32,889 bases of DNA, taken from positions 1 through 32,889 of IMG/VR virus record IMGVR_UViG_3300002092_000022; one strand, given 5' to 3'. Of this stretch, positions 6,132-26,402 are shown in pieces (within the stretch, counting starts at the first letter, position 1; the number at the start of each line of letters is the position of its first letter). Position numbers and translations under genes: made by a program. This DNA is from a virus. The notes below the pieces were generated by a model. That model searched no databases and was not told the DNA's origin. It saw only the letters and a list, made by a program, of their open reading frames with translations.

Positions 6132-6680
6132 TTAGGAGAGCGTGATTGCTGTGCTGTGGTATCCGCCATCGATCCAGCCTGTGGTTCCAACTGGCTTAAC
6201 AGCGCGACCCTTCAATGTGAAAGGTTGGAAGTCTTCCTCAGTGAAACCGATAGAAGGAAGCTCAGTAATCTTGCACTTGTTAAGAGTGATTGAGTTATTT
6301 GAGCCGTTAACTTCAGAAACCAAGCTGATACCTTCAATGTTGAACCAAGCAGCATTAGCTGGGCCACCAAGTGACCAGTTGTAGTCAGTGCCGGTTCCGG
6401 CAGTGTTAACAGCACCAGTAACGAGAGCGAAGATGTTTGGATCGAACTTAACTACATCAAGTTCCCAAGTGACATCCTTGAGGATTGAGAATAGGTCGTA
6501 GACCGTGTAGTTAGCCTTCAGTTCCTTGACATCGTAAGTTCCGGAGATCTTAAGATTCTTGGCACCAGGAAGGTGGATTGAGGTTCCGTAGGTCGCAGCG
6601 GCACCAGCGACGTCGGTTGAGAGTGGGCTGACTGTGACGTCTGCCAAGGCGAAGCTTTTGATTGCGATCTGGGTAGTCAT
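6132..6680 (-). CDS. Major tail protein.
   Basis: 182 aa, in the position upstream of the chaperones. Preceded by a copy of the late motif at 6711-6733. Confidence 0.7.
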   Translation of the reverse strand: MTTQIAIKSFALADVTVSPLSTDVAGAAATYGTSIHLPGAKNLKISGTYDVKELKANYTVYDLFSILKDVTWELDVVKFDPNIFALVTGAVNTAGTGTDYNWSLGGPANAAWFNIEGISLVSEVNGSNNSITLNKCKITELPSIGFTEEDFQPFTLKGRAVKPVGTTGWIDGGYHSTAITLS

Positions 6681-6710
6681 GGCGGTCCTTTTTGTTAGTT
6701 GGTCTATTAG

Positions 6711-6733
6711 TAATAGTGCGGGCTAGCGTCCCC
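6711..6733 (-). promoter_or_regulatory. Motif ii, copy a: GGGGACGCTAGCCCGCACTATTA.
   Basis: 30 nt upstream of the major tail protein ATG. Confidence 0.55.
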
Positions 6734-6746
6734 TTGGGATAAGGGT

Positions 6747-7145
6747 TTAAGCGGGTGAACGTGTGATTGTGAGCGTGTATAGCGTGCGAGTTATTCCCTC
6801 ATCGTTAACCTCACCAGCAACGGGATTTGTTGTGCGGCTAACTACTGAGCATCGGTAGACCTGTCCTGCTGCTACCGAAAGTGATTTGCGATGAAGTGCT
6901 TTATGGACTGCATCTGGGAGTCCAACGTCTTCACCCGTATTGGTATAAAGGTCAACCTGGCAGGTCTCTGTAAGAATTAAATCACCGGGTATATCAAGTC
7001 GAGTCGATACGTCTAAACCGTCGTATACAACTAAGACTGGCGCAATATTTGCTGGAGCTTCAATACGGTAGACGGGGAGCGTTGGGATGCTTGTAGCCAG
7101 GGAAGCCTTGATGGCACCGGCGATCGTTGCTGGGAGCGTTGTCAC
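6747..7145 (-). CDS. Tail terminator / tail completion protein (called by position only).
   Basis: 132 aa, ATGA overlap with the upstream gene, lies between the gp10-like gene and the major tail gene. Confidence 0.5.
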   Translation of the reverse strand: MTTLPATIAGAIKASLATSIPTLPVYRIEAPANIAPVLVVYDGLDVSTRLDIPGDLILTETCQVDLYTNTGEDVGLPDAVHKALHRKSLSVAAGQVYRCSVVSRTTNPVAGEVNDEGITRTLYTLTITRSPA

Positions 7146-7588
7146 TTTATTCCCTTCAACTTTTTAAGAAACTTTGGAACCTGATGTGTAATAGCTGGAC
7201 GTAGCATTGGTTGCGGACGTGTTCCAGGATGCCTGACCTTCTTGCCGAAGATTTCTCCTGTGCGCCTATTTGCTAAGACCTTCGCGTTCTTTGCAACTAT
7301 GTCGTGTGGCTTGGTTCCGTATTCGATATCTGCTGCATATGGAACATTATTGGATACCTCTACCCAGCCGCCCTTATTAGTGCGACCTTGGCGAATCTTC
7401 CAACCAGCGCGTAATACGCCAGTCTTAACCGGAGTTAATGAGAGTGCTTCGTTACGAATCTCGTAACCAAGCTTGACTACTTCGTCGAATGCTTTTTCTT
7501 CTAATCGCTCAAGATGTTTGCTTACGGCTTCCATAAACGGATTTATGTCGAAAACTTCAAAATCTCTTTGTGGACCGATATTTGCCAT
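7142..7588 (-). CDS. HK97 gp10-like head-tail joining / tail component protein.
   Basis: 148 aa. The TPVKTGVLRAGWKI motif is typical of the HK97-gp10 family. Confidence 0.7.
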   Translation of the reverse strand: MANIGPQRDFEVFDINPFMEAVSKHLERLEEKAFDEVVKLGYEIRNEALSLTPVKTGVLRAGWKIRQGRTNKGGWVEVSNNVPYAADIEYGTKPHDIVAKNAKVLANRRTGEIFGKKVRHPGTRPQPMLRPAITHQVPKFLKKLKGIK

Positions 7589-7914
7589 TAGCGTCCCCAG
7601 ACTGCGAGCTGAATCCTTTTGGTTAGTGCTAACTCATATACGCCGATTACTGCCCAGTCGCGGCCGTTGATAGTTAACTTGTCGCCTATTTGGACATCCG
7701 GGTTAGCCATCGTTGATATTGCGGCATCTACTCTTTGACCGGCAGCACCTGCTACTTCTTGACGGCTAGCCTTTGGGACACCGAAGCCACCGTAGAACTC
7801 TCCAACGTTGACCCATGTGTGCGACATACTGCCTTCTAGGTCTACACCGGATTCCCTGCGTTGAATCATCGCGTGATGCGAGGTAAGCGAGGGGAGCGTA
7901 AACATTAGTACCAC
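7588..7914 (-). CDS. Head closure / head-tail joining protein (SPP1 gp16-like).
   Basis: 108 aa. Position and the C-terminal pattern (DKLTINGRDWAVIGV) fit the head-tail joining family. Confidence 0.65.
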   Translation of the reverse strand: MVLMFTLPSLTSHHAMIQRRESGVDLEGSMSHTWVNVGEFYGGFGVPKASRQEVAGAAGQRVDAAISTMANPDVQIGDKLTINGRDWAVIGVYELALTKRIQLAVWGR

Positions 7915-8570
7915 CTGCTCCTTGGTTGACGCCTGTATGGAGCGATCAATCGATCGATTACTGCATAACCTGTTCCGTGTATTTCTGAAGTCAATGGTTG
8001 AGCTGGTTGAGAAGCAAAGGTTGCCGAGTAACCCTCTACAGATATTGCTTGGACTCCATCTGGTCTAACTGTTAAACCGGCACCAGCGGCTGTTGGTATT
8101 GCTTGACCTGTGTTAATCAGGAAGGCACCTGCGAGCATTGCTGTTGCTTGCTTAATTCCTATTGGAGTTGATTCGGTTCCAAGGTCTGCCGTTACTACTA
8201 AAGTGATTCCGCCTGTTTGATATTTTCCTAGTCTCCAGGGTTCCATTCCAACGATAAGAATGTTCCATTGACGATAAGGCGTGATGCGGATACTTCCAAG
8301 CTTTCCTGTCGTGATCTTCATTGCTTGAGCTGGGATCGTTACCCCGGTCAACCTATCGGCTACTGATGTAACTGCTCGGGTTGTTGCGGGCATATAGGCA
8401 ACGCCTGCTTTATTTGTGAAGATTTCTACTGTTGAAGCATTGTGTGGCTCGAAGAAGTCTTGCGCGATCATTTCTATCTGTGATTGAGCGTGAATGATTG
8501 CGTCTGCTACAGATACACCTTCATGCGGTGTTGCGTAGATTAGTACGTCTGACTCTGCACAGTAACTCAT
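7905..8570 (-). CDS. Head-tail connector/adaptor protein (putative).
   Basis: First gene after the capsid terminator. I prefer the second ATG (8570, MSYCAESD...) because GGGGA lies 4 nt upstream of it. Confidence 0.55.
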   Translation of the reverse strand: MSYCAESDVLIYATPHEGVSVADAIIHAQSQIEMIAQDFFEPHNASTVEIFTNKAGVAYMPATTRAVTSVADRLTGVTIPAQAMKITTGKLGSIRITPYRQWNILIVGMEPWRLGKYQTGGITLVVTADLGTESTPIGIKQATAMLAGAFLINTGQAIPTAAGAGLTVRPDGVQAISVEGYSATFASQPAQPLTSEIHGTGYAVIDRLIAPYRRQPRSRWY

Positions 8571-8586
8571 CGTTCCCCATTTCATT

Positions 8587-8622
8587 TATAAAAATGGGGG
8601 TGGGTTTTATTCCACCCCCATT
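8587..8622 (-). terminator. Rho-independent terminator after the capsid gene.
   Basis: 11-bp stem AATGGGGGTGG/CCACCCCCATT with an 8-nt loop, followed by TTTTTAT on the minus strand. Confidence 0.8.
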
Positions 8623-8645
8623 AGGACTAACTGGTTATCGACCTA

Positions 8646-9743
8646 TTAGTCGACTGTGCACTTGACGATTGCTTTTGGAACAATCATGTAAGGCAATACA
8701 CGAACATCACCCATAAGAGTGAGAACACCCTTGAGGAAGTTGTCTGCGTGTGAGTCAGTCATAGCAAGAGTGGTATCTCCACGGTCGTAGATTGTTACGG
8801 CAGTCTTGAAGTCACCAACGTAAGCATCTCCAGCAGCAACAAGTGGGCTTGTTACAATCTTGAGATCCCAGAATGCATCGTGAACCTGAGCACCGGTCAA
8901 TGTTTGACGAAGGATTGCTACGTCAGCAGCAGCGCGATCCAATGGGTTCATAAGAACAGCATTTGGAACGTAGCCAAGAGCGAGTGCTTGTGCTTGTCCT
9001 TCACGGATGGAAGACAAGAGATCCAATGGGGAACCTGTGGAAGCGTAGACATTGGTCTGGATTGCGCCAGCGCCTGAAGTTGGAGCAGAGGTGATTACGG
9101 TAGCAATCAGTGCCTCAACCTTGTTGATGATGCCTCGGTAGATACGGTTGGTGATAAGCGAGGTAACGCGACCGAAGTCAGCGGCAGCTTGCTTTGTTAC
9201 AGCAGTCCAGTTGGATACTGTCTCGAGAGCAGCGGTCACCTGGGTGAACTCAACTGTGGTCTCTGGACGAGTAGCACCTTCGGCAACAACGTCAGCACCA
9301 AGTACGAAGTCTTCGGTTACGAATTGAACTGCTGTGGTGCTAACAGTCTCGTGGTTGACTACATCGGTGAGTGGTGTTGGTAGGTCGACGATTGGAACAT
9401 ACTTTTGGGTTGGAAGAACTTGAAGATCGGTTGTTGATGTAGCACGTGATGCTAACTCAACTTTTCCGCTTCCCTTGCGACCAGCGTATTCAACAACGCC
9501 CTTCGCAGCTCTTGCGGTTAAATCTTCCTCAGCAACGCGACCGTTAACATCTTCAGTTGAGACAGAGGTTCCGGAGTTTGCAGCGGCAACAGCGTCAGCG
9601 GCTAGTTTTGCGTTTCTGTTGTGGGTTTCGATCTTGGATGTGACGTCGCGAAGTTCTGAGATTTCCTCTTCAGAAAGTGTTTCGCCAGCAGTTAATCTTG
9701 CTGCGAGTTCAGCAGCGCGGGTTTTCATTTGCTCAATAGGCAC
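8646..9743 (-). CDS. Major capsid protein, HK97-like with an N-terminal delta domain.
   Basis: 365 aa. The first ~100 aa look coiled-coil (KTRAAELAARL...). GTG start with AAGGAG upstream. Follows the prohead protease and there is no separate scaffold gene. Confidence 0.85.
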   Translation of the reverse strand: MPIEQMKTRAAELAARLTAGETLSEEEISELRDVTSKIETHNRNAKLAADAVAAANSGTSVSTEDVNGRVAEEDLTARAAKGVVEYAGRKGSGKVELASRATSTTDLQVLPTQKYVPIVDLPTPLTDVVNHETVSTTAVQFVTEDFVLGADVVAEGATRPETTVEFTQVTAALETVSNWTAVTKQAAADFGRVTSLITNRIYRGIINKVEALIATVITSAPTSGAGAIQTNVYASTGSPLDLLSSIREGQAQALALGYVPNAVLMNPLDRAAADVAILRQTLTGAQVHDAFWDLKIVTSPLVAAGDAYVGDFKTAVTIYDRGDTTLAMTDSHADNFLKGVLTLMGDVRVLPYMIVPKAIVKCTVD

Positions 9744-9815
9744 GATGGCTCCTTAGTAGATTATTTGGTTTACGCCTTCGTGCTACATCCCCAGGGCGTA
9801 ATACTGGATCACTAG

Positions 9816-9838
9816 TAATAGTGCGGGGGGGCGTCCGC
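9816..9838 (-). promoter_or_regulatory. Motif ii, copy b: GCGGACGCCCCCCCGCACTATTA.
   Basis: About 72 nt upstream of the capsid GTG. Confidence 0.55.
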
Positions 9839-9848
9839 TGTTAACCTG

Positions 9849-10262
9849 TTACTTCTCAGATTTAGCCTTCAAGACTTCGATAGCAATAGCCATCTCGTTC
9901 TGATTTTCAAGCATAAAGTCGACCTTGTTGACGAGTCCCGTCTTGCCTGAATTGAAGATTGCGTAGTTAATCTTGGCTAAGACTGCCTCGATGTTTGAGA
10001 ATTTTGCGTCGAACTTGTGCTCGAGAGATTCGAGCTGAACCTTCACGGCATCATTAGCATCACGCTTAGCAATCTCGTCCTGTTGAGTCTCGATTAGCAA
10101 GTCCTTCTCGGAACTCTTGTTCTTTCGGTATTCCTTAGCCTTCTTATAGCTGAAGTATCCGATTATTAGGGTCGCCACGGAATCAACGATTGCCCAGAAA
10201 GTGTTGACTAGGAGGTTGGTTTCATCCAACGTAAGTATCAGCGGAATATGAGAGGCAACCAT
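9849..10262 (-). CDS. Membrane-anchored coiled-coil protein, unknown function.
   Basis: 137 aa with one hydrophobic segment (FWAIVDSVATLIIGYFSY) followed by a charged helical region. Coupled to the upstream gene (TAATCATG). Confidence 0.6.
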   Translation of the reverse strand: MVASHIPLILTLDETNLLVNTFWAIVDSVATLIIGYFSYKKAKEYRKNKSSEKDLLIETQQDEIAKRDANDAVKVQLESLEHKFDAKFSNIEAVLAKINYAIFNSGKTGLVNKVDFMLENQNEMAIAIEVLKAKSEK

Positions 10263-10264
10263 GA

Positions 10265-10618
10265 TTACGCTCCAGGAGTGATTGGTGCCGTCGAACCGTT
10301 CTCGGATGCTAGGTGATCAAGGTATCCGCCAACAGCGGCTACATCAGAAGCAATGGGTGCCGAGAGGTTGGCCTCTTTGGATGCTAATACGGCAGCCTTG
10401 GCAACAAAGGACACGGTGCGACCGAATCTAGGATCCTTCTTGTTGAAGTAGCTATAGATAGTCGCGAGAGTCGCGGCCGCTGCTCCGAAGAGGATTGAAT
10501 AGATCTGCTTGGTAGTGAAGTCCAACGGATTTACGGCTAACCCAGCAAATGCAGTGGAGACTGCAGCGAGATAGGTTTTAACCCAAGACTCGATTAGAAG
10601 TTTTGTGCTTGTAGACAT
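10265..10618 (-). CDS. Two-TM small membrane protein, unknown function.
   Basis: I prefer the internal ATG at 10618 (MSTSTKLL...) because AAAGGAACGACG precedes it and the longer ORF would run through a hairpin. Two hydrophobic segments. Confidence 0.55.
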   Translation of the reverse strand: MSTSTKLLIESWVKTYLAAVSTAFAGLAVNPLDFTTKQIYSILFGAAAATLATIYSYFNKKDPRFGRTVSFVAKAAVLASKEANLSAPIASDVAAVGGYLDHLASENGSTAPITPGA

Positions 10619-10639
10619 CGTCGTTCCTTTGCTTAGGGG

Positions 10640-10690
10640 TATGTTGATCCAACCCGGGGCGTTTGACCCCGACACTTCCCCGGGTTGGGT
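10640..10690 (-). other. 11-bp inverted repeat (CCAACCCGGGG ... CCCCGGGTTGG) between the protease gene and the membrane-protein genes.
   Basis: Read directly at about 10645-10688. No clear T-run follows, so it is more likely an attenuator or RNA structure than a strong terminator. Confidence 0.5.
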
Positions 10691-10694
10691 TCTA

Positions 10695-11351
10695 TTACTC
10701 GGCTAGCGCTATACGAGCGAGTAGCGAGAGGGCTTCTTGGTTTCGCTTCGATACGGCGGCTTCAGTAATGCGAGCGGCTTCATCACCATCTGGTTCCCCA
10801 GCGTCATCAGAGCCAGCAGGGACACCATCAACTTGATCGAGAACATTCTCGATTAGTTCAGCGGCATCACGGAGTGCTTGTTCATTAGCGGCAGATAAGA
10901 CTCGACCAGAGCGAGCAGAAGAGAACTTGCTACCAGGAACAGCTGCGAACCTTGCGGTTATCTGGCTAACCTCAACGAGGCGAGCCTGCTTAATTTCAGT
11001 AGAAGAGGCATCGCTCTCATAGTCAAGCCATTCGAAGCCAACTGATAATTCTCCAGCAGAGCCAGATAGAGCAGCAGCACGAGCATTCTGCCCGTCAGTG
11101 GATTCATCCCACTTGCCAACTATCCATAGACCGTCCATTCGCTCTTCAGCCATGAAGGTTCCGATTGGCTTATTTGGATTATGCATCCATAGGAGCGCAT
11201 AGGTTGTCTTGTCTAATCCACCAGCGTTGAAGCATCCTGGAATAAAGGTTGTCCCGTAACTATCAACTACACCGAATTGGCAAGCTCGGCCTTCAAAGAA
11301 GTTGGAGTCTGTAGTGGCGCGTATCGCCATATTTATGCTGCGTATGTTCAT
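10695..11351 (-). CDS. Prohead protease (HK97 family, S78-like).
   Basis: LWMHNPNKPIG (His) and ELSVGF (Ser) motifs. Position between the portal and capsid genes. Confidence 0.8.
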   Translation of the reverse strand: MNIRSINMAIRATTDSNFFEGRACQFGVVDSYGTTFIPGCFNAGGLDKTTYALLWMHNPNKPIGTFMAEERMDGLWIVGKWDESTDGQNARAAALSGSAGELSVGFEWLDYESDASSTEIKQARLVEVSQITARFAAVPGSKFSSARSGRVLSAANEQALRDAAELIENVLDQVDGVPAGSDDAGEPDGDEAARITEAAVSKRNQEALSLLARIALAE

Positions 11352-13585
11352 TCTGCGCCTCCTGAGGCATCGTTGTTTTCTTGGTTATCCGGGGAATCAG
11401 TAGTGTCTGGAGTATCAGTCGCGTATTGCTCGACACAGCGGCAATTCACGGTCTCTTCTGGATCCCCATCAGGATCACCAGGGAACATCAAGCCATTTGG
11501 ATACTCATCGTCCATGCTCTTTGTCTCGTAGCCATCGAGTTCGGCGTGACTATCGCGAGTATGTTCATCTAATTCAGCCATCCAGATACGTGATGAGGTA
11601 ACACCAGACTCAACAGCAGACATCCTTGAGGCACCGTTGTATCCGCCAACCATCTCTGTGCGAGCGATTGAATCAGCACGCCAAGTAGAGAGATCTGAGA
11701 AGGTGGCTTCCAAGGCATCAGCAAACTGGGTAACCGTCAAGCCATCGAACTCACCTAGTGCAGAGAGTTTCTGATCAAGGATTTTCGCGGTTGTCTCATT
11801 TACATAACCAGCAAGTTTTGTTGCTCGCTCTGTAGCACTCTTCATAATGAGCTCATCGAACGAGACTGTTATTCCTAGGGCATCAGCAACATCGGAAGCC
11901 CCGGCATCCATAGCAGCAGTGATTGCTGGTAGTAAGTAATCAGTAGCGCGTTCTACCCATAACTTCGGATCAAATACATCGCTTGCTTTAGGTAACGTGG
12001 TAGCACGGGAACGATTTAACCTCTTAGTAGCATCCTTGAGTTGTGCCTCTGCGAGTCGTTTAACTGCTCTGGTCATCCCGGCTTCCAGGCGATCCATTGC
12101 TTTGCGAGCTTTATCAGGCGAGACACCGCGGATTAGGCGAGTAGGAACCTCAACGCGGGTCTCCTCAACAACCTCTTCTGCACCGGATTCCGATTTGGAC
12201 GGTTCAGGAGTGGTGTCTACATCTGTGGACACGCGAGCCTCTACTGGCCTAGCGTCAATGTTGAAGGTTTGGATTGTTTCCGGGGTTATCCTGGCAACAG
12301 GTGCTGTTGGCTTAGGAGCGAATAATGCTTCATAAGCAACGAGAGTCAGGTGACCATACTCAGGCATAGCGTCTTTACCGAATAACGCACGACCCTCGTC
12401 GATGGTAATCAAGTTCGTATTAGCGAGTGTTGCGATTCTCTGGACGAGGCTGTCCTGGCTCTCTTGGAGAACCGAGATATCAGACGTATCGAATACTGCG
12501 CGAAGACCAGTGCCAGCAAGGAACTGTCGATCGATTTCTGAAGCAACGAGAGATAGCGTTGGGAGAACCGAGGCTTCCCAGAAGATAGTCCACGAGGCAT
12601 CAACGTTTGCGTAAGTCCTTTGACCACCAACGAGATCCAGTGGGATACCGAGAGCCAAGGCAATATCGTCACCCGCTACACCAATCGAGTTGAGATACTC
12701 GAACTCTTTAGGTGAGAAGGAAGTCTTAATAAAGTGCGGTTGAACTGGACCAGATACAACAGCGATACGTCCAGCACTTGAAGGGCCAGTTAATGCTGCT
12801 TCTACTTCTTCACGTAGACCGTAATACTCTTCGCTGTTTCCCTCTGGATTACCGAGGTAGACAATGCCCGATGGGTTACCACCGTTAGCGAGTTGTCCTG
12901 CTTGCCATTCACGAGATGCTTTAGTTAAACCGATTGAGTCTAGAGCGGCAGTCATTGGAGCACGGGCAGCCCAAGGATCCATTGGATCCGGATAACGGAA
13001 CCAGAAGACTTCAGATGGTGCGAGGATTGCTGTTTCTTTTCCAACGCCAACTCTGTAAGCAATAATCTCTCCATGAGGAGCGTGAGCAGATGGGTCGCCA
13101 AGGATTACCTCTACCTTGCCGTAGTGAAGCCAAGCAGTCTTAGGTGTATCAACACGCGATGAGCCGCGATCCATTATTACGAAGGCTTGACCAGTATGCG
13201 TTCCACGACCATAGAGTGATCGACGGAATAGGAGACCCGAGATATCAGTTGATGGTGCTTCGTTGAATAGTGTTGTTAGGAAGTGTGGGACTTCATCGCC
13301 AGCCTCGTTAATAATCTTGAGTCTGCGAGAAGCCAGTGAGTTAACTAGTAAATCGAAGCATCGAGAAGCTACTGCGGATACTGCGAGTGCCCTATCAAGA
13401 CTTGGGCGTAACCGAGATATCTCTTGTTCAGTGCTGATTGCCGAGCCACCCCAAGGTGAACCGATCATGCTGAAAGAGCCCCAAGGAGTCTGGAACATTC
13501 CGTTAGCTTGTTGCGCTTGAATTATTTGCTCGCGCTTTTCTAAACCACCGATTGGGTTTCCGTGTCTGTCAAGCAGTGCCATCAA
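11348..13585 (-). CDS. Portal protein fused to a MuF / SPP1 gp7-like head morphogenesis domain.
   Basis: 745 aa. The C-terminal block ...RTEMVGGYN...DEHTRDSHAELDG...PGDPDGDPEETVNCRCV is the MuF signature. ATGA overlaps on both sides. Confidence 0.8.
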   Translation of the reverse strand: MMALLDRHGNPIGGLEKREQIIQAQQANGMFQTPWGSFSMIGSPWGGSAISTEQEISRLRPSLDRALAVSAVASRCFDLLVNSLASRRLKIINEAGDEVPHFLTTLFNEAPSTDISGLLFRRSLYGRGTHTGQAFVIMDRGSSRVDTPKTAWLHYGKVEVILGDPSAHAPHGEIIAYRVGVGKETAILAPSEVFWFRYPDPMDPWAARAPMTAALDSIGLTKASREWQAGQLANGGNPSGIVYLGNPEGNSEEYYGLREEVEAALTGPSSAGRIAVVSGPVQPHFIKTSFSPKEFEYLNSIGVAGDDIALALGIPLDLVGGQRTYANVDASWTIFWEASVLPTLSLVASEIDRQFLAGTGLRAVFDTSDISVLQESQDSLVQRIATLANTNLITIDEGRALFGKDAMPEYGHLTLVAYEALFAPKPTAPVARITPETIQTFNIDARPVEARVSTDVDTTPEPSKSESGAEEVVEETRVEVPTRLIRGVSPDKARKAMDRLEAGMTRAVKRLAEAQLKDATKRLNRSRATTLPKASDVFDPKLWVERATDYLLPAITAAMDAGASDVADALGITVSFDELIMKSATERATKLAGYVNETTAKILDQKLSALGEFDGLTVTQFADALEATFSDLSTWRADSIARTEMVGGYNGASRMSAVESGVTSSRIWMAELDEHTRDSHAELDGYETKSMDDEYPNGLMFPGDPDGDPEETVNCRCVEQYATDTPDTTDSPDNQENNDASGGAE

Positions 13586-15027
13586 CGGCCTCCTAATGGG
13601 CGGGGTGCGAACGGTGAAATCTTCTTAGTCGGTCTTCGTCCATACATGTAGTTATGACTGGAACTACTGTCTTCGAGTAATGCTGTTATTGCCCAGACCA
13701 TCGCATCGAGTCGATCAGGTGAACCTGGTTTATCTGGCGTCCAAGTAGTCATCTGCTCTTCAAGTTTGACGAAGTAACCCACCATATGAAGGCGACCTTG
13801 TTCCGAGAGTGCAGCAATAGGCTCAGCACGAACCCGCTTGCCACGGGACGCGCGAACCTTCTTAATATCTATAGTGCGGGCTACCGTCCGCGTTTTAAGT
13901 AGGGATTCCGCAAAATCGCCACCCTGGTTAACCTCGACAACGATTGAATCCGCATTCCAAGTCTCATAAGCATCAAGAACCATAGAGACAGCGCCATCTG
14001 GTGAATACACGCCAGACCTATCATCAAGGATCACGTAGTGAGCAGGATCCCCACTTAATTGAGCTGCCACGATGATGCCGTGCTCATCACTATTCGCGTT
14101 TGATGTAACCGCGGGATCCCAACCAACAAATATCTTCTTCATTTCATCAACAGCCGGCGGGAATTCGTGTCGAGTGATATCTATTGAAGCGGAAGTCCAT
14201 AAGGCACCAGGGGTATCCGTAAGGAACTCGCCATACAATTCTTGACGACCAGTACGAGTCTTATCCCAACGCTCTTCCCACTTTGCTAATACCTCGGGTG
14301 ACAGGTTCTCCCTGTTCTCATAAGTCGTATGGACAACCCGGTATACATTCTTAGATTCAATCAAGCGTTTAACAAGGGGATGCCCCTGCTTCGGGGTTCC
14401 CGTCATAATGAATAACGCGCCACCTTTTCGAACAGCGAAGCCAATAGCGTTATCCCACGTGTATTCCCAGGTATTCAAGTTCCACAATCCAACTTCATCG
14501 CACCAGATGGCACTGACGTTCTTGGATTCAATTTGGGCTCCACGGTTATCCGCTCCACCCGAGTAAACAATCGCACCGTTATTCATATGAAGGATGCCAG
14601 TAGAACGGTTGTAAGCTTTTATATGCGGACCATTCTCGCCGCCTAATGCTTTAATGAGACCACTATCGCCTTCCATAAGCGTCGTCTTAGTGGTCGAGAG
14701 AATCGGACCAACTACCGCATAAGCGTTTTGGGATCCCTCTTCATCGTATCCATCGTTGTAAACAATTATCTCTGCGAGAGCATTTGCCGCGCACCAGGTT
14801 TTCCCTGAGCCTCTACCGCCTTGCGCGTAATATTCTCGGTAGACAGTATTGAGTCCACCTGGACCCCAAGGTGGCTGTTGTTTCCCTCTTGCGTGCTTAT
14901 ATGGATAACCATCGTGAGGCTTGCCATCGCACTCGCGGTTAGGACAGCGCCAACTAACAGCGGCCTTGCGTGTCTCGAGTATCTCGGCTAATCGCTTGCG
15001 GGCTACCTGGTCTACAGGGAGTTCCAT
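13582..15027 (-). CDS. terL: Terminase large subunit.
   Basis: Walker A-like GGRGSGKT, a downstream nuclease-domain-like C-terminus, and position upstream of the portal. Confidence 0.9.
   Translation of the reverse strand: MELPVDQVARKRLAEILETRKAAVSWRCPNRECDGKPHDGYPYKHARGKQQPPWGPGGLNTVYREYYAQGGRGSGKTWCAANALAEIIVYNDGYDEEGSQNAYAVVGPILSTTKTTLMEGDSGLIKALGGENGPHIKAYNRSTGILHMNNGAIVYSGGADNRGAQIESKNVSAIWCDEVGLWNLNTWEYTWDNAIGFAVRKGGALFIMTGTPKQGHPLVKRLIESKNVYRVVHTTYENRENLSPEVLAKWEERWDKTRTGRQELYGEFLTDTPGALWTSASIDITRHEFPPAVDEMKKIFVGWDPAVTSNANSDEHGIIVAAQLSGDPAHYVILDDRSGVYSPDGAVSMVLDAYETWNADSIVVEVNQGGDFAESLLKTRTVARTIDIKKVRASRGKRVRAEPIAALSEQGRLHMVGYFVKLEEQMTTWTPDKPGSPDRLDAMVWAITALLEDSSSSHNYMYGRRPTKKISPFAPRPLGGR
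13869..13891 (-). promoter_or_regulatory. Motif ii, copy e: GCGGACGGTAGCCCGCACTATAG, inside the terL coding sequence.
   Basis: Encodes ..TRTVARTID.. and lies about 285 nt upstream of the portal start. Confidence 0.45.
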
Positions 15028-15332
15028 TTGTCATCCCCACTAAACCAAGGCAAGTCCAACGCATCGTGATTCTCTTTATCGTGTAAACCAATCGCAGCAA
15101 GACAAGCAGCCGCTATTACTTGATGGACATCATGACAAACTTCAGTCCTGCACTCGTATACAGCGATCGCCTCTTCACACGCTTCTTGATACATACTGAA
15201 AGCGGCTTCGTGAACAATGCGGTGCTCTAAGTCGATCGGGCAATCCTCGTTACAGATGGAATCCTCTTCATTGCTTTCTTCGTTGAAGTTCACATATATA
15301 CGCACGTCTATGCTCACCTTTCGATCAATCAC
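15012..15332 (-). CDS. Acidic Cys/His-rich protein, unknown function. Start codon uncertain.
   Basis: 106-aa ORF overlapping the terL start by 16 nt. It has several candidate GTG starts, and AAAGGTGAG precedes the one at about 15302. Confidence 0.5.
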   Translation of the reverse strand: MIDRKVSIDVRIYVNFNEESNEEDSICNEDCPIDLEHRIVHEAAFSMYQEACEEAIAVYECRTEVCHDVHQVIAAACLAAIGLHDKENHDALDLPWFSGDDKWNSL

Positions 15333-15506
15333 TTTTACGCTCAGATGTTGTTGGTTTCCCTGCTATCTCTCTAAGGGTTTAAGTCAGTGTCGTTCGTCAG
15401 GGTGTAAAGCGGTTGAGAGCCCGGTGTGCGAGGGCGACCCAAGGGATCAACACGTCTCGCTTGCCGAGAGAGGGCGGCCATTAAGACCAGGCTCCCAACC
15501 TCAATC

Positions 15507-15522
15507 TGATCTATCGGCGTGA
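15507..15522 (-). promoter_or_regulatory. Motif i, copy 1: TCACGCCGATAGATCA.
   Basis: Embedded in the inverted repeat AATCTGAT-N15-ATCAGATT. Heads the 15012/terL operon. Confidence 0.55.
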
Positions 15523-15538
15523 TAAATCAGATTCGCAA

Positions 15539-15880
15539 CTAAATCTTTGATAAATCTTTTTGTAACCAATCAGGCTCTGAAGAAGGATCCATCGCCACGC
15601 ATATAGCAAGAGCATTAGCAACCGCTGGGTTACTACCGTCAGTCACTTCAGCCGCTGCCTCTTGCATTGTTAAGTTGTAAGAAGTCAGCACGTCCGACGC
15701 ACACTTGAGTTCCGCCTTCGCTGTAGCAGGTAACACAGTGCTAACCGTGTTAACCAATTCTTCAACGCCGCTCGCAGTAATCGTTGAGACAATCCCCAAT
15801 AACCCTGCTGCCATAATCAGTTCGGTAACAGTGAAACCCTTGTTGCCATGCTTCCTAAGCTCGTTGATTCTCTTGATCAT
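15539..15880 (-). CDS. Membrane protein with a prepilin-type (class III signal) N-terminus. Holin-like position.
   Basis: MIKRINELRKHGNKG/FTVTELIMAAGLLGIV matches the G-F-T-x-x-E + hydrophobic motif. GGGAGG lies 7 nt upstream of the ATG. Last gene of the lysis cassette. Confidence 0.6.
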   Translation of the reverse strand: MIKRINELRKHGNKGFTVTELIMAAGLLGIVSTITASGVEELVNTVSTVLPATAKAELKCASDVLTSYNLTMQEAAAEVTDGSNPAVANALAICVAMDPSSEPDWLQKDLSKI

Positions 15881-16352
15881 TTGATGCCTCCCTGGCTATC
15901 CCGGACGGTGTTGTCCAGAACGGCTCTAACCATCGGCGGTCACCCGCGGCCACAGCGACGAACGCTGCTAACTGCGAACAAACAACCGTCCTCGTATCAA
16001 GGCAAACTCGCTCAACCCACTTAGGACGAAACCCGAGGATCGAGATAGCCAATGCAATGAGATCAATGAAGCCATACGGTTTCCCAAGATGCTTAACCGC
16101 TTCAGCCAATGCTTCCGTCCGGTCACCCTCTAGAGAGATAACGATGTAATCCGAGTATTCATTTAGGGAACCCAAGGCAACACCAGTAGGACACGCTTCA
16201 ATGATCATCTTGCCGTATACGTGAATCGCAACATGGTTATAACGCCAAGCGTCAGTAGAGTGATCATCTATCCACTGTGCCCCGCGGATCACCTTCCCGA
16301 AGAACCCGCCAGTACGAATCGCTATTAGGTCACCAGTCTTTAACTCCATCAC
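15855..16352 (-). CDS. Permuted papain-like cysteine peptidase (YaeF/YiiX, NlpC/P60-related). Second cell-wall hydrolase candidate.
   Basis: GDLIAIRTGG..., NHVAIHV (His) ... IIEA ... VCSQLAA (Cys), in the permuted order. Confidence 0.6.
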   Translation of the reverse strand: MMELKTGDLIAIRTGGFFGKVIRGAQWIDDHSTDAWRYNHVAIHVYGKMIIEACPTGVALGSLNEYSDYIVISLEGDRTEALAEAVKHLGKPYGFIDLIALAISILGFRPKWVERVCLDTRTVVCSQLAAFVAVAAGDRRWLEPFWTTPSGIAREASNDQENQRA

Positions 16353-17251
16353 GAAGCCACTTCGAATAAGTCGCTCTTCTTGCCGAGTAACGCGAGAGTC
16401 GTGAACCCTGGTGCCCCGTTAGCGTTAGCTCCCCTGTAACCGCAATCGCGTTGCCAAGCGGCGTAAGCGTTAGAGGTAGCGTTGCCGAAGATGCCATCTG
16501 GGTTCCCTGGATTACGACCAACTTTTGCTAGTGCTTGCTGTAATAGCTTGACTTCAGGGTTAGATTTATTGGGTTGAACATCGGTTAACTTGATTACTGG
16601 CAGAATCGGGCTTGTATGCCCCGTAGAGGCGTTGACTACTGTCTTTGGGGTAATCACCTCAGGAGAACCTGGATCCCCCGCCAAAACCGAACGTCCGCCC
16701 GATTTGGGGGTGTTTAGCCCCGATACACCAGCAAGGAATGACGCTAGCGGGAAGTTCACGCCTGGATCCGTGTGACCACCAGCGATTTGTTTAGCTCGGG
16801 TGATGTCCGCGTGATAGCAGAAGCCACTAGAGACACCATCAAGGATCTGCTTGTCTGATAGGTGTATCGGGGCTATACCGTATGCCTTAGATAATTCAGC
16901 GGAGAGCTTCTCTACTAGAGCGAGTTCACCTCGGCTGTAAGCATCAGCCCATTGAGCTGGTGACTGGGAAGCCTGGCCAGCCAATTCAATGCTGATCGAC
17001 TCTTCGTTGTATTCAGGGTTAGCAACTGCCCACGCGGTATCCGAGTCCTTAACGCTTTGGACTATCTCGTGATTATCAACGCAATAATGCGCGGAAGCCT
17101 CAGGAGCGGTTGACCCGGCGAACCACGATGCAACACTAGACGCGCGTCCATCAGTCTCGGGAGTCTCCATCGTGTGGAGGACAATCATCCTGATCTTCTT
17201 GCCAGCGCGACCTGGCGTGTAATGCTTCGCTTGAATAAAGGGATACGACAC
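16349..17251 (-). CDS. Endolysin: N-acetylmuramoyl-L-alanine amidase (amidase_2/PGRP) with a C-terminal PG_binding_1 domain.
   Basis: IVLHTMETPE...SAHYCVD...ISIELAG motifs, and the C-terminal LLQQALAKVG...PDGIFGNATSNAYAAWQ. I prefer the GTG at 17251 because GGAGG lies 6 nt upstream. The track ORF extends to 17299. Confidence 0.9.
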   Translation of the reverse strand: MSYPFIQAKHYTPGRAGKKIRMIVLHTMETPETDGRASSVASWFAGSTAPEASAHYCVDNHEIVQSVKDSDTAWAVANPEYNEESISIELAGQASQSPAQWADAYSRGELALVEKLSAELSKAYGIAPIHLSDKQILDGVSSGFCYHADITRAKQIAGGHTDPGVNFPLASFLAGVSGLNTPKSGGRSVLAGDPGSPEVITPKTVVNASTGHTSPILPVIKLTDVQPNKSNPEVKLLQQALAKVGRNPGNPDGIFGNATSNAYAAWQRDCGYRGANANGAPGFTTLALLGKKSDLFEVAS

Positions 17252-17313
17252 GGGGAACCTCCAGAGATACCAGTAACCCGTGCCTGAAACCAGTAACACG
17301 AGCGTTGTTACCT

Positions 17314-17337
17314 CTATTAGTGCGGGCTAGTGTCCGC
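17314..17337 (-). promoter_or_regulatory. Motif ii, copy c: GCGGACACTAGCCCGCACTAATAG.
   Basis: About 62 nt upstream of the endolysin GTG. Confidence 0.55.
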
Positions 17338-17350
17338 ATAGAATCCCTAC

Positions 17351-17902
17351 ATGACTGATACTGATCAAGCTACTAAAGAAAAGTTTATGAAGGAGTGCTT
17401 AAAGATTTGGAACGCAATACAGACTGCAAACGCGATCGAGACACGCTGGGGGTATTTTATTTACAATGATCTGGCCACCACGGTTAGCCCAGGGGATATC
17501 TACCTAGAGGATTACGGCGATCAGTTTCTTCTCTTCTCGCTTGAAGCACTAACGATTGCACGCGAAGAGGAAACCAATCTCGATAAGTTAAATTGGATTG
17601 ACGCGAATATTGAGCTAGCCACGGAAGACCGTGCTAACAAGGCTACCGCTCAAAACATCATCGACTCGTACAAGACTTTGGTAGAGGCGCATAAAGAAAC
17701 TTTTAATTATTTAGATCAAGTGTATGTGCGTGATCGTAAGAGTGACCTAGAGAAAATTTCTGGAATCGGCTTTGTTGAAAAACAGTTAAAAGACTTGATG
17801 CTAAAAAGTAGTTACGATCACAGAACTGCTGAGATTGCTTATGCGTTATCTGCGAGGCCGATAGGTACTGGTAACCAAGAAAACAAAGGGGATCCAGAAT
17901 GA
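17351..17902 (+). CDS. Acidic protein, unknown function (plus-strand accessory gene).
   Basis: 183-aa ORF, AT-richer than the flanking sequence, coupled to the next gene by an ATGA overlap. Confidence 0.6.
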   Translation: MTDTDQATKEKFMKECLKIWNAIQTANAIETRWGYFIYNDLATTVSPGDIYLEDYGDQFLLFSLEALTIAREEETNLDKLNWIDANIELATEDRANKATAQNIIDSYKTLVEAHKETFNYLDQVYVRDRKSDLEKISGIGFVEKQLKDLMLKSSYDHRTAEIAYALSARPIGTGNQENKGDPE

Positions 17903-18252
17903 ACACGGCATCAGCGGACGAATTTAATAAACTACTCGCACTAGAGAAGGCTCACTACTACGTGAGCACCTACCCAAATAACCTAATTGTTACTCGCAAT
18001 ACTTTAGACATGATGAAGCTCAAGAAGATACAGCCAGAATCCTGCTGCGTTATCGGAGAGTTCTTCCTGCTTGACTACGTTAACGAGGATGAGGTCTTAG
18101 GTGGCTACTGCCCGAATGCGATCATCGCCATCGTTACTTGTACCGCGCTAACACAAGCGAGAGCCGAGGCTTCCCTGGAAACCAAGGTAGCCATCGCTTT
18201 AACACTCAACGGTAAGCCAGCACCAGCACCATGGGCAGAAAGTGCCCTATGA
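17899..18252 (+). CDS. Small protein, member D of the four-member paralog family.
   Basis: Shares LLALEKAH... and ...ALTQARAEASLETKVAIAL with the ORFs at 21261, 22115 and 22305. Confidence 0.6.
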   Translation: MNTASADEFNKLLALEKAHYYVSTYPNNLIVTRNTLDMMKLKKIQPESCCVIGEFFLLDYVNEDEVLGGYCPNAIIAIVTCTALTQARAEASLETKVAIALTLNGKPAPAPWAESAL

Positions 18253-18526
18253 GGGGCGATCTATTTAACATAGTTCAGAGTAAGAGTACAGAGACAACTG
18301 CGTGACTAACGCGGTTGTCACAGCGTGACAGGTATTTACTAATCACCAACAAGACTGTTCCTAGAAGCCATTCTCAGCAGACCAATCCAAAATGCTAAAA
18401 AGTAGCAAAAACAGTGTAAAAAGTTGAGCGTGAAAACGCTGTAGGAACGATCCTAAGGGCTCGAATTTTTAGGGGTGCAGGTATTCTACCCCGCTAAATT
18501 ATTGAGCCTATTTTGAGCATGAAAAA

Positions 18527-18617
18527 GCCCCCAATCAGGACTCGAACCTGAACCTCACTTCTAGGGTTGCAACCACTTGGGTTCCTAGAAGCTGCTCTGC
18601 CATCGAGCTCTTGGGGA
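18527..18617 (-). tRNA. tRNA-like gene with canonical acceptor, D and T arms but a 26-nt anticodon loop. Isotype undetermined; may be intron-containing, degenerate or a decoy.
   Basis: My hand fold gives: acceptor TCCCCAA/TTGGGGG, D arm GCTC-GATGGCA-GAGC, T arm TCAGG-TTCGAGT-CCTGA, anticodon stem GCTTC/GAAGT enclosing 26 nt. No CCA is encoded. Confidence 0.6.
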
Positions 18618-18675
18618 CTTCTATCTAATAGCCTGCACATGATGCTAAGCAACAGAGATGCAGGCACTGACAACT

Positions 18676-19233
18676 TTAACTATCGGCGTCAATTTCTTGG
18701 TTCTCTTGGATTACAGGTAACACTGGACCGATCCCGCTCAACTCATTCGCTAATCGCAGCAAGTCCGCATCGGTAACCGTGGAGACCTGCGACTGCATCG
18801 GACCGCCATCAGGGCCGCTGAGTTCAACCTTCTGAACATTCTTCCCGAACTCATCAGGCCAACCTTTTTCTAGCAAGAAAGTGTTAGCCGTAACTGAACC
18901 ATTCTTAGCAAGGACCCGAAGGTTCCCCAGGAACTCCTGCTTGTAAAACGCTCTCGCCCGCTCAATCGCGTCCACGAAGTTGACATACACGTCATTCTTA
19001 GGATTCGGACGCGCCTCTTTCGGAGTAGCAGCACGACCCTTAGCATCAAAGTCATCCCAGGCTTCCCGGATAGCAGACTCAGCATTACCAATCGACTTCC
19101 ACTTATGGAAAACCGAAGGCGAAATACCAGATAACCGAGCCGAGTCAATAATAGACATACCATTCACGACACGAGTCGTAATCTCCTCAGCCAGCTCAGC
19201 TGTAGGTTTTGGACGGAAAGATGATTTAGTCAT
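18676..19233 (-). CDS. terS: Terminase small subunit candidate (HTH DNA-binding protein).
   Basis: N-terminal HTH (MSIIDSARLSGISPSVFHKW) and the block ...ANTFLLEKGWPDEFG, which is typical of small terminases. Lies 3.6 kb from terL. Confidence 0.6.
   Translation of the reverse strand: MTKSSFRPKPTAELAEEITTRVVNGMSIIDSARLSGISPSVFHKWKSIGNAESAIREAWDDFDAKGRAATPKEARPNPKNDVYVNFVDAIERARAFYKQEFLGNLRVLAKNGSVTANTFLLEKGWPDEFGKNVQKVELSGPDGGPMQSQVSTVTDADLLRLANELSGIGPVLPVIQENQEIDADS
18680..18695 (-). promoter_or_regulatory. Motif i, copy 2: AAATTGACGCCGATAG.
   Basis: Lies in the last codons of terS (..EIDADS*), with 62 nt between it and the tRNA-like gene. Confidence 0.55.
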
Positions 19234-19237
19234 ACAC

Positions 19238-19260
19238 CTAATAGTGCGGGCTGGTGACGG
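19238..19260 (-). promoter_or_regulatory. Motif ii, copy d: CCGTCACCAGCCCGCACTATTAG.
   Basis: Ends 4 nt before the terS ATG, so the transcript may be leaderless or nearly so. Confidence 0.5.
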
Positions 19261-19264
19261 AAAA

Positions 19265-20461: not shown

Positions 20462-20501
20462 ACCCTAAGTATACCGGCTTTTGTATATCGGGGCTATACG
20501 G

Positions 20502-21264: not shown

Positions 21265-21545
21265 TTCTTGTCTCCTCCCATCACTAACGCAACAGCCACC
21301 TTGGTAGCCGGGTCAGCCGATGCTCTCGCTTCAACCAAGGTAGGACAGGGGTCAGAAAACTTAAATATCTCAGTCCTTGGGATTGGGTGTGAACAGTAAA
21401 AACATAAAAGACCTATACCTGATTTATCTTCACTAAATGTATAACCCCAATTACCCTCGTGTTCTCGTTCTATGGCTACCAGGTTATCCACGGCCTCCGC
21501 GGAATAAGGGACAGTGTCCATTTTGGTGTCCATTGGGCTAGTCAT
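21261..21545 (-). CDS. Small protein, paralog family member A.
   Basis: NLVAIEREHEG ... DPCPTLVEARASADPATKVAVAL. Confidence 0.6.
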   Translation of the reverse strand: MTSPMDTKMDTVPYSAEAVDNLVAIEREHEGNWGYTFSEDKSGIGLLCFYCSHPIPRTEIFKFSDPCPTLVEARASADPATKVAVALVMGGDKK

Positions 21546-26335: not shown

Positions 26336-26402
26336 TTCTATTTGTTTTCCGTGTCTTTTCGCTGTTTCTTCTCGTGTCAGGCCAACCCAGTAGACTTGGT
26401 TT

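What the first reader, a model, noticed from the sequence alone, without database searches (positions are those of the whole stretch)
6711..19260. Second conserved 20-23-nt motif (GCGGAC-NNTAGCCCGCACTATTA) marks the late genes, with one copy inside terL
Seen:
- Five same-sense copies lie at 6711, 9816, 13869, 17314 and 19238. They share AGCCCGCACTA(T/A)TA, and four of them also share an upstream GCGGAC.
- They precede the major tail, major capsid, endolysin and terS genes.
- The fifth copy is inside the terL reading frame (coding ..TRTVARTID..), about 285 nt before the portal gene.
- The terS copy ends 4 nt before the ATG, which would give a leaderless or near-leaderless mRNA if it is a promoter.

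The spacing between GCGGAC and the A/T-rich part is too short for a standard -35/-10 pair, so this is not an obvious sigma-70 promoter. It is clearly distinct from the GCCGATAG motif. That implies two transcription classes: one is likely read by the phage sigma, the other by the host holoenzyme or an activator.
Basis: partly seen in the sequence, partly recalled or inferred. Interest (0 to 1): 0.65.

Follow-up and report, generated by a model that had tools for sequence, protein, structure and literature searches.

The report
Late-gene promoter set of an actinophage
The repeated 23-base motif is real and is most likely the phage's own late-gene promoter, kept at the same five places (one inside the terminase gene) in every known relative; this is a familiar phage strategy in an unusual form, and the protein that reads it is still unknown.

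Summary
The five minus-strand copies exist at the stated places, against 0.19 matches expected by chance. Four relatives from metagenomes carry the motif at the same positions: before terS, endolysin, capsid and tail genes where the contig reaches them, and inside terL. A distant fifth relative, L244, has its own version at five or six late-region places, also inside terL.

Two blocks are conserved everywhere, GGAC and ACTA, 10 bases apart. A T-purine pair follows 8-9 bases after ACTA in all 19 aligned sites. At terS that purine is the A of the start codon. The 10 bases between the blocks differ between lineages.

Inside terL, synonymous positions are frozen and two codons change amino acid to fit each phage's variant. 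No RNA hairpin is conserved. The pattern is absent from 401 actinobacterial genomes and from 92 more distant terL relatives.

I read it as a late promoter without a -35 element, giving a leaderless terS mRNA.

The genome holds three promoter classes:
- host-type TANNNT-N6-ATG;
- the GCCGATAG class;
- this class.

My odds are 45% the phage sigma and 35% an unrecognised factor. No transcript data could be obtained.

The parts
19233..19261 (-). Motif B copy before terS (TCCGTCACCAGCCCGCACTATTAGGTGT-A). The predicted +1 is the A of the terS ATG at 19233, giving a leaderless mRNA.
   Evidence: The spacing CACTA-N8-ATG is identical in W, L016, L243 and L234; L237's contig starts inside the site (CTATTAGGTATATG). 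No Shine-Dalgarno sequence fits. The terS N-terminus is conserved from Met1.
17309..17337 (-). Motif B copy before the endolysin (GCGGACACTAGCCCGCACTAATAGAGGT-A), predicted +1 at 17309. It lies back to back with a host-type leaderless promoter (TAGAAT at 17339-17344) for the plus-strand gene at 17351.
   Evidence: The same position is occupied in L016, L243, L234 and L237.
13863..13891 (-). Motif B copy inside the terL reading frame (GCGGACGGTAGCCCGCACTATAGATATT-A), 284 nt upstream of the portal gene. Predicted +1 at 13863.
   Evidence: Codon alignment. Codons CGG ACG .. CGC ACT ATW GAT ATT .. AAG GTT CGC are identical or nearly so in four phages, while flanking synonymous sites vary. The two middle codons read VA, LS, PS or PT, following each phage's variant. 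L244 has its own variant at the same place.
9810..9838 (-). Motif B copy before the major capsid gene (GCGGACGCCCCCCCGCACTATTACTAGT-G), predicted +1 at 9810, with a 66-nt leader.
   Evidence: Conserved in L016, L234, L236 and L243.
6705..6733 (-). Motif B copy before the major tail gene (GGGGACGCTAGCCCGCACTATTACTAAT-A), predicted +1 at 6705, with a 24-nt leader containing AAGGA.
   Evidence: Conserved in L016 and L236.
18676..19233 (-). terS, small terminase subunit, 185 aa.
   Evidence: 91-92% identical in L016 and L042/L243, 67-68% in L234 and L237. Called terS from its position; no Pfam hit.
13582..15027 (-). terL, large terminase subunit. It hosts the internal motif copy.
   Evidence: Terminase_6N/6C in the L234 orthologue.
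16349..17251 (-). Endolysin (Amidase_2 plus PG_binding_1).
   Evidence: The start at GTG 17251 is inferred from the conserved GGAGG-N-GTGTCG in L016.
8646..9743 (-). Major capsid protein.
   Evidence: Orthologues carry Phage_capsid PF05065.
6132..6680 (-). Major tail protein (named from its position).
   Evidence: No family search was run on it.
27737..28459 (-). The only recognisable sigma factor gene (240 aa, regions 2-4, closest to primary-type sigmas). One of two candidate readers of motif B.
15511..15518 (-). Motif A (GCCGATAG) copy in the late region, before the small gene and terL operon. It is followed by a conserved structured leader.
18680..18687 (-). Motif A copy at the 3' end of terS.

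Best explanation
Motif B is the late-class promoter of this temperate actinophage lineage.

Anatomy, counted from the inferred start:
- GGAC at -26 to -23.
- A 10-bp spacer that differs between lineages.
- (C)ACTAW at -13 to -8.
- A T at -1 and a purine at +1 that never vary.
- No -35 element.

Five copies feed one long late transcription unit: terS (leaderless), the lysis genes, portal and protease (from inside terL), the capsid and head-completion genes, and the tail genes. None is preceded by a terminator, so they act as boosters along the unit.

Host core RNA polymerase is directed to them by a phage-encoded factor made earlier in infection. The leading candidate is the phage's own RpoD-like sigma factor (27737-28459). 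That gene sits behind a GCCGATAG-class promoter, which gives a cascade from GCCGATAG class to sigma to motif B.

Shown: the motif, its positions, its conservation, selection on the DNA inside terL, and the absence of a conserved RNA fold.

Inferred: My odds are about 0.8 for 'late promoter' and about 0.45 for 'read by the phage sigma'.
For: Occurrence:
- There are 7 hits against 0.19 expected.
- All copies are on the gene strand, and there are none in the early region.

Conservation of position:
- Motif B is conserved at the terS, endolysin, terL-internal, capsid and tail positions wherever the contig reaches them, in four relatives (L016 and L040, L243/L042, L225/L234, L227/L236/L237); all five are on record in W and L016 only.
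- L244 carries its own version at five or six late-region places, including inside terL.

Start site:
- In 19 aligned sites the T and purine 8-9 nt after CACTA never vary.
- The five L244 sites examined show the same pair.
- At terS, and at one L244 gene, the purine is the A of the ATG.

Selection on the DNA inside terL:
- Identical codons reach 0.75-0.86 in the windows downstream of the first block, against 0.35 overall.
- The two middle codons change amino acid to match each phage's variant.

Other points for a promoter:
- Leaders of 24-66 nt with ribosome sites follow the other copies.
- No hairpin is conserved.
- The pattern is not a host genome motif: 4 hits against about 45 control hits in 401 actinobacterial genomes.

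For the phage sigma as reader:
- It is the only transcription factor of the right kind that is shared by all lineages.
- Its gene lies behind motif A in every lineage.
- Motif B drifts between lineages, as does the sigma (26-54% identity, no invariant residue in regions 2.4, 3.0 or 4.2).
- Motif A stays GCCGATA throughout, as expected for an element held in place by a slowly evolving host factor. Its octamer equals the sigma-28/WhiG -10 consensus GCCGATAA; that comparison rests on my own knowledge.
Against:
- No -35 element lies 16-18 bp upstream, although this sigma has a normal-looking region 4.
- The sigmas of L227 and L234 are close to each other (same regions 2.4 and 4.2), yet their motif B spacers differ (CATCAC against CTACCC). 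The more different L040 sigma goes with the same spacer as L227. So the spacer does not simply track the sigma.
- If host factors read the 8-10 motif A promoters, a lysogen would need each of them repressed. If instead the phage sigma reads motif A, silencing one gene is enough.
- GCCGAT-type elements also accompany distant members of this sigma family (L228, L244). An earlier follow-up (e1-3276411) assigned motif A to the sigma.
- Orthologous sites in relatives are not independent observations.
Confidence: 0.45

Rival explanations
1. Motif B is a late promoter, but the phage sigma reads the GCCGATAG class and activates its own gene. Motif B is then read through a second phage factor made from GCCGATAG-driven transcripts. 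That factor is not recognisable by sequence. It could be a gp55-like minimal sigma, an activator, or a cofactor that retargets the sigma or the host holoenzyme.
For: - A GCCGAT(A/G) element precedes the sigma gene and early genes in every lineage carrying this sigma family, including L244 (sigma 26-28% identical) and the 66%-GC L228.
- A temperate phage is easier to silence if its many early promoters depend on one phage protein.
- A host-type leaderless promoter before the HTH-integrase operon could read across attP into xis and sigma, but only in the circular genome. That would give first expression after infection.
- TTGnnn at -35-like spacing occurs in 8 of 33 motif A sites against 6% background, and the sigma's region 4.2 resembles that of primary sigmas.
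- The motif B spacer does not track sigma similarity.
Against: - No candidate second factor was found. Pfam, NCBIfam and PHROGs on the unknown early proteins gave nothing sigma-like or activator-like.
- gp187, next to terS, is missing from the L225 phage.
- Besides the sigma, the only early proteins shared with L244 are an HNH nuclease, a zinc-finger fragment of HNH type, and a small zinc-ribbon protein that is itself not found in L225/L234.
- An RpoD-like sigma would have had to arrive at exactly the sigma-28 octamer and keep it unchanged while its DNA-reading regions diverged.
Confidence: 0.35
2. Motif B is not a promoter. It would be a protein-binding site that acts on elongation or silencing, like the oriented repressor sites ('stoperators') of mycobacteriophage L5, or an RNA processing site that cuts the late polycistronic transcript.
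For: - The site is asymmetric, always co-oriented with transcription, and lies directly after the stop codon of the preceding gene.
- No terminator precedes any copy.
- Cleavage just before the AUG would also give a leaderless terS mRNA.
Against: - The motif is restricted to the late region, with only five copies.
- The T-purine pair at a fixed distance, the exact spacing to two start codons, and the A/T-rich stretch between ACTA and that pair all fit initiation.
- A processing site inside terL would destroy the terL message, whereas a promoter there is harmless.
- No RNA structure is conserved.
Confidence: 0.1
3. Motif B is read by a different kind of polymerase or holoenzyme: a sigma-54-type -24/-12 promoter (GG-N10-GC), or a T7-type single-subunit RNA polymerase promoter (compare CACTATAG).
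For: - In the window and its close relatives, GG and GC lie 10 bp apart with the start 13 nt after the GC.
- The 23-bp contiguous conservation and the CACTATA string look like T7, SP6 or K11 promoters. That comparison rests on my own knowledge.
Against: - The GC is not kept in L244, which has TA or CA there.
- The hosts are actinobacteria, which lack sigma-54 according to established knowledge. No AAA+ activator was found among the proteins scanned.
- The record is a complete 32.9-kb genome with terminal repeats. Its largest reading frames (745, 707, 648 aa) lie in the portal/MuF, tail and tape-measure positions, so there is no room for a single-subunit or two-barrel polymerase.
Confidence: 0.03

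Closest known systems
Late or middle promoters without a -35 element, read by small phage-encoded sigma factors (T4 gp55 with TATAAATA; phiEco32 gp36 and Salmonella phage 7-11, PMC4331800; SPO1 gp28 and gp33/34)
   Same: A phage-specific element centred near -10, repeated before structural and lysis genes, in a genome that encodes its own sigma factor behind an earlier-class promoter. Host core polymerase is redirected.
   Different: - Conservation runs over about 20 bp (-28 to -8), with a second block one helical turn upstream and a lineage-specific spacer.
- The sigma here is a full region 2-4, RpoD-like protein.
- The phage is temperate and infects actinobacteria.
- The pairing of sigma and promoter is not shown, and may belong to the other motif.
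T7-group promoters for single-subunit RNA polymerases
   Same: A contiguous, genome-specific sequence of about 23 bp that differs at a few positions between related phages and contains CACTATA-like bases.
   Different: No such polymerase gene is present in the complete genome. The inferred start is 8-9 nt after ACTA, not directly after TATA.
Late operon activators upstream of terS in Gram-positive temperate phages (RinA, ArpU, LtrC families; PMC3152322)
   Same: A dedicated late control element directly upstream of terS in a temperate siphophage.
   Different: Those phages have one late promoter and a recognisable activator gene next to terS. Here there are five copies, one of them inside a gene, and no recognisable activator. 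The gene next to terS (gp187) is not conserved.
Stoperators of cluster A mycobacteriophages and start-associated sequences of cluster K (own knowledge)
   Same: Short asymmetric repeats in actinophage genomes, oriented with transcription and placed between genes.
   Different: Stoperators number 20-30 across both genome arms and bind the repressor. Start-associated sequences abut the start codon and include the ribosome site. Motif B is late-only, lies 0-284 nt from the next start, and carries a start-site signature.

Membership tests
Primary-sigma (sigma-70/SigA) promoter | -10 hexamer TANNNT at -12 to -7 | tested here: not met
   The bases at -12 to -7 are ACTAWN. CACTAT is one base further upstream, with C at the first position. 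Genuine TANNNT-N6-ATG elements occur elsewhere in the same genome.
Primary-sigma (sigma-70/SigA) promoter | -35 hexamer 16-18 bp upstream of the -10 | tested here: not met
   Nothing is conserved upstream of -28. GGAC lies only 10 bp from ACTA. The consensus scan finds no excess of standard promoters.
Sigma-54 (-24/-12) promoter | GG and GC separated by 10 bp, conserved across members | tested here: not met
   Present in the window and close relatives, but the GC is replaced by TA or CA in the L244 sites that share GGAC, ACTA and the start pair.
Sigma-54 (-24/-12) promoter | Host sigma-54 and an AAA+ activator | not testable with these tools
   The host genome is unknown. The phage proteins scanned show no AAA+ activator. 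That actinobacteria lack rpoN is established knowledge and was not tested here.
T7-type single-subunit polymerase promoter | The phage encodes the cognate polymerase | tested here: not met
   Complete genome with terminal repeats. No unassigned reading frame is large enough.
Phage-sigma-dependent late promoter without a -35 element | Conserved element near -10, before late genes, co-oriented with them | tested here: met
Phage-sigma-dependent late promoter without a -35 element | Sigma factor gene in the same genome and in all relatives that carry the motif | tested here: met
   A sigma is present in W, L040 (the L016 phage), L225, L227 and L244. The pattern is absent from 92 loci of terL relatives outside this group.
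Phage-sigma-dependent late promoter without a -35 element | That sigma directs initiation at the motif | not testable with these tools
   Needs in vitro transcription or reporter assays. Sequence co-variation was inconclusive.
Stoperator-like repressor sites | Many copies in both early and late regions, including at the early promoter | tested here: not met
   Five copies, all in the late region.
Structured RNA element or terminator | Conserved base pairing | tested here: not met
   The 4-bp GCGG/CCGC stem exists only in the variants with CCCGC. The CATCAC variant does not fold.

The most novel reading that the evidence does not exclude
The late genes of this actinophage group are switched on by a specificity factor of a kind not yet recognised. 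One possibility is a small phage protein with no detectable similarity to sigma factors. Another is the RpoD-like sigma working in an unusual geometry, contacting a continuous stretch from -28 to -8 with a second contact only one helical turn upstream of the -10. Either way, a three-tier cascade (host primary sigma, then the GCCGATAG class, then the GGAC-N10-ACTA class) would run in a 33-kb temperate phage with only one visible sigma gene.
Probability: 0.3. Interest if true: 0.7.

Novelty: new variant of a known kind. Interest (0 to 1): 0.5.

Why it matters
- Phage-specific promoters are the handles by which a phage's gene programme can be read from sequence alone. Here they divide an uncultured freshwater actinophage genome into three expression classes.
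- The copy inside terL is a clear case of a coding sequence bending to a regulatory signal: silent sites are frozen and two amino acids follow the promoter variant.
- The short, orthogonal promoter and factor pairs could also serve as expression parts for actinobacteria.

Tried and rejected
- **Exact 15-mer of motif B in viral contigs.** It gave 12 single-copy hits, all chance.
- **Exact 14-mer of motif A in viral contigs.** It gave 116 single hits, none related.
- **Megablast of the window against cultured phages.** No match.
- **Sigma profile against viral contigs.** No relatives.
- **terS profile against viral contigs.** Only L016.
- **Inverted repeat or hairpin reading.** Rejected because it is not conserved.
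- **gp187 (19898-20461) as late activator.** Rejected because it is absent from the L225 phage. It is itself behind a host-type leaderless promoter.
- **Sigma-54 and T7-type readings.** Rejected; see the rival explanations.
- **Co-variation of sigma regions 2.4, 3.0 and 4.2 with the motif B spacer.** Inconclusive.
- **Hidden second sigma among unknown proteins.** None found.
- **Motif B as a host genome motif.** No. The one look-alike, in G195, lies inside an ordinary gene.
- **Generalised pattern in 92 loci of distant terL relatives.** There were 8 hits. Five lie in one homologous coding stretch, and none resembles motif B.
- **Rfam.** No match.
- **Last terS relative (P0068).** No DNA was held for it.


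Full report
**What the window is.** The 32,889-bp window is a complete virus record with a 101-bp terminal repeat. Almost all genes lie on the minus strand.

In transcription order the genes are:
- an HTH protein and a tyrosine integrase (29188-30654);
- an excisionase-like HTH;
- a 240-aa sigma factor (27737-28459);
- replication and small early genes;
- terS, the lysis genes, terL, portal/MuF, protease, capsid, tail and tape-measure genes.

The best matches to cultured phages are all actinophages: Arthrobacter, Gordonia, Microbacterium and Mycobacterium. The nearest prophage-like terL lies in a Thermoleophilia genome. So the host is an actinobacterium. Judging by the sample names of the relatives, it is probably a freshwater one.

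**Check of the observation.**
- The five minus-strand copies are there.
- With up to two mismatches the 14-mer core gives 7 hits against 0.19 expected.
- Two of those hits (3950 on the plus strand, 7375 on the minus strand) lack the rest of the motif and are chance.
- Only three copies carry the exact core, and only three carry an exact GCGGAC.
- The gene assignments are right. The terL copy lies 284 nt before the portal start.

**Relatives.** Searches with the terL, sigma and terS proteins found four close lineages and two distant ones.

| Lineage | Source |
|---|---|
| L016 plus L040 | Same sample, overlapping gene content; taken as one phage |
| L042, full contig L243 | 32.8 kb, inside an NCBI assembly |
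| L225/L234 | 31.3-kb contig |
| L227/L235/L236/L237 | 30.6-kb contig |
| L244 (distant) | terL 59%, sigma 26-28% identical |
| L228 (distant) | Sigma 33-34% identical, 66% GC, early region only |

Wherever a close relative's contig covers the position, the motif stands there: before terS, before the endolysin, inside terL, before the capsid gene and before the tail gene.

**Anatomy.**
- Nineteen sites align as SCGGACRC-NWNC-MCGCACTAWWR-N5-T-R.
- The middle block is specific to each lineage: TAGCC in the window, CATCA in L016, L243 and L227, CTACC in L225.
- It also tolerates some variation within a genome: CCCCC in the window's capsid copy, and CAGAC in the L237 endolysin copy.
- L244 has a very different version, KGACGGGCACGAYAACTAWCA, at five or six late-region places including inside terL.
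- When anchored on GGAC, the L244 version shares GGAC, 10 bases, ACTA (ACCA in one copy), and the same T-purine pair 8-9 nt after ACTA.
- So the deep core is GGAC-N10-ACTA-N7-T-R. This reduced pattern hits 3-6 times per genome, only on the gene strand, against 0.05-0.3 expected. It is absent from the early-region loci.

**Evidence that it is a promoter.**
1. *Position.* Copies lie directly after the preceding stop codon or in divergent intergenic regions. Each is followed by a 24-66-nt leader with a ribosome site, or abuts the start codon.
2. *Start-site signature.* The T-purine pair never varies, which is the usual pyrimidine(-1)/purine(+1) pattern. At terS the purine is the A of the ATG, with the same spacing (CACTA-N8-ATG) in every lineage where the site is fully held. 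One L244 gene has the same arrangement. Leaderless mRNAs are common in actinobacteria; that is established knowledge.
3. *Selection on the DNA inside terL.* Codons over the two blocks and the start region are identical in four phages, although every flanking conserved residue uses varying synonymous codons. The share of identical codons is 0.75-0.86 in the windows downstream of the first block, against 0.35 overall. The two codons over the spacer change the protein (VA, LS, PS, PT) to match each phage's variant.
4. *No RNA fold.* The GCGG/CCGC stem seen in this genome is missing from the CATCAC variant, so no fold is conserved.
5. *Not a host motif.* The pattern gives 4 hits against about 45 control hits in 401 actinobacterial genomes. 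It does not occur in 92 loci of more distant terL relatives.

The start sites are therefore inferred.

**What it is not.**
- *Not a standard primary-sigma promoter.* Nothing is conserved at -35, the bases at -12 to -7 are ACTAWN, and the two blocks are too close together.
- *Not sigma-54 type.* The GG-N10-GC spacing holds only in the close relatives and fails in L244. Actinobacteria also lack sigma-54 (established knowledge).
- *Not T7 type.* Despite the CACTATA look, the complete genome has no room for a phage polymerase.

**Three promoter classes, one sigma.**

*Motif A.* Its consensus is AAAWTSAC-GCCGATAK-AT.
- It precedes the sigma gene, the early genes, the terL operon and a few others, in every lineage.
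- GCCGAT(A/G) elements also stand in four intergenic regions of L228.
- Upstream of motif A lie phased A and T tracts.
- Many motif A leaders begin with a conserved hairpin.

*Host-type class.* A third class fits the actinobacterial primary-sigma pattern for leaderless genes: TANNNT, 6 nt, ATG.
- TACACT stands before the HTH-integrase operon. This is conserved as TATACT in L225 and L227.
- TAGAAT stands before the gene at 17351.
- TAGACT stands before the methylase gene.
- TATACT stands before gp187. In L016 this is TATAAT.

So neither repeated motif is a host primary-sigma promoter. Two specificity factors are needed, and only one is visible.

**Who reads motif B.**

For the phage sigma:
- It follows the classical order: the sigma gene lies behind the earlier class and the motif lies before late genes.
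- It is the only suitable protein shared by all lineages.
- Motif B drifts with the phage lineage, as does the sigma, which has no invariant residue in its DNA-reading regions.
- Motif A is frozen, and its octamer equals the sigma-28/WhiG -10 consensus. That suggests a conserved host factor reads motif A.

Against the phage sigma:
- A temperate phage with 8-10 host-read early promoters would need all of them repressed.
- The sigma sits behind its own class of motif, together with operator-like TATAACAA repeats.
- The motif B spacer does not track sigma similarity. The L227 and L234 sigmas share regions 2.4 and 4.2 but go with different spacers.
- An earlier follow-up note (e1-3276411) assigned motif A to the sigma. 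Its co-occurrence argument holds, but it holds equally for motif B.

The search for another factor failed:
- gp187, next to terS, is missing in L225.
- Family scans of the unknown early proteins found nothing sigma-like or activator-like.
- Besides the sigma, the early proteins shared with L244 are an HNH nuclease, an HNH-type zinc-finger fragment, and a small zinc-ribbon protein that is not found in L225/L234.

My odds: late promoter about 0.8. Read by the phage sigma about 0.45, read by an unrecognised factor about 0.35, not a promoter about 0.1, and other polymerase types about 0.03.

**Comparison and novelty.** The closest known things are late promoters without a -35 element that are read by phage sigmas, such as T4 gp55 and phiEco32 gp36. 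Motif B differs from them in four ways:
- its long contiguous conservation;
- the second block at -25 and the lineage-specific spacer;
- the full-length RpoD-like sigma;
- the temperate actinobacterial setting.

I rate it a new variant of a known kind.

Noticed in passing
window 15395-15508, minus strand: A structured RNA of about 95 nt lies in the 5' leader of the small-gene and terL operon, directly after a GCCGATAG site. It has a 15-bp closing stem, and 7 pairs in the predicted fold (mostly in that stem) keep pairing through changes on both sides across five phages. The core UAAUGGCCGCCCUCUCUCGGCAAGC is invariant. Rfam has no match.
   Followed up: partly
window 30937-30955 (-), 17339-17353 (+), 26391-26405 (+), 20462-20476 (-): Host-type leaderless promoters (TANNNT, 6 nt, ATG) stand before the HTH-integrase operon, a divergent gene pair, the methylase/nuclease pair and gp187. 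They are conserved in relatives. Because attP appears to lie between int and xis, a transcript from the HTH-int promoter could reach the sigma gene only in the circular genome.
   Followed up: partly
window, downstream of motif A sites at 23769, 24788, 25743; also L040, L234, L227: Many GCCGATAG-class leaders begin with a conserved hairpin (GTAGGNCA..CTACA) followed by CCTTAGAGAGG as the ribosome site. This is a reusable 5' leader module.
   Followed up: no
L244 12064, 13111, 13602, 13935, 15359, 20157: A distant relative (JGI sample 3300051400) has its own late motif KGACGGGCACGAYAACTAWCA, including a copy inside terL. The spacer contains CGATAA, which resembles the -10 of the other motif class.
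   Followed up: partly
window 22305-22697, 22115-22303, 21261-21545 (-) and 17899-18252 (+): A family of small paralogous proteins shares a C-terminal pattern (CP.L..AR...TL.YVA..L). No family match was found, and the function is unknown.
   Followed up: no
window 20480-20496 (-); also 16715 (+), 16875 (-), 29287 (-): The 11-mer TAGCCCCGATA occurs four times. Before gp187 it forms the palindrome GTATAGCCCCGATATAC, which is conserved in L016. It is a possible operator.
   Followed up: no
window 28733-28775 (-); L040 200-245; L225 9905-9950: Direct repeats of TATAACAA-like heptamers stand just upstream of the GCCGATAG element in front of the sigma gene, in several lineages. They look like operators controlling sigma expression.
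   Followed up: no
window 28793-28978 (-): The 61-aa excisionase-like HTH_17 protein is 88-90% identical across lineages whose other early proteins are 40-75% identical. That is unusually strong conservation.
   Followed up: no
L243 (NCBI assembly GCA_001029185.1, contig LDNN01000024.1, 32.8 kb): A complete relative of this phage sits as a separate contig in a deposited genome assembly. Identifying that assembly's organism might name the host.
   Followed up: no
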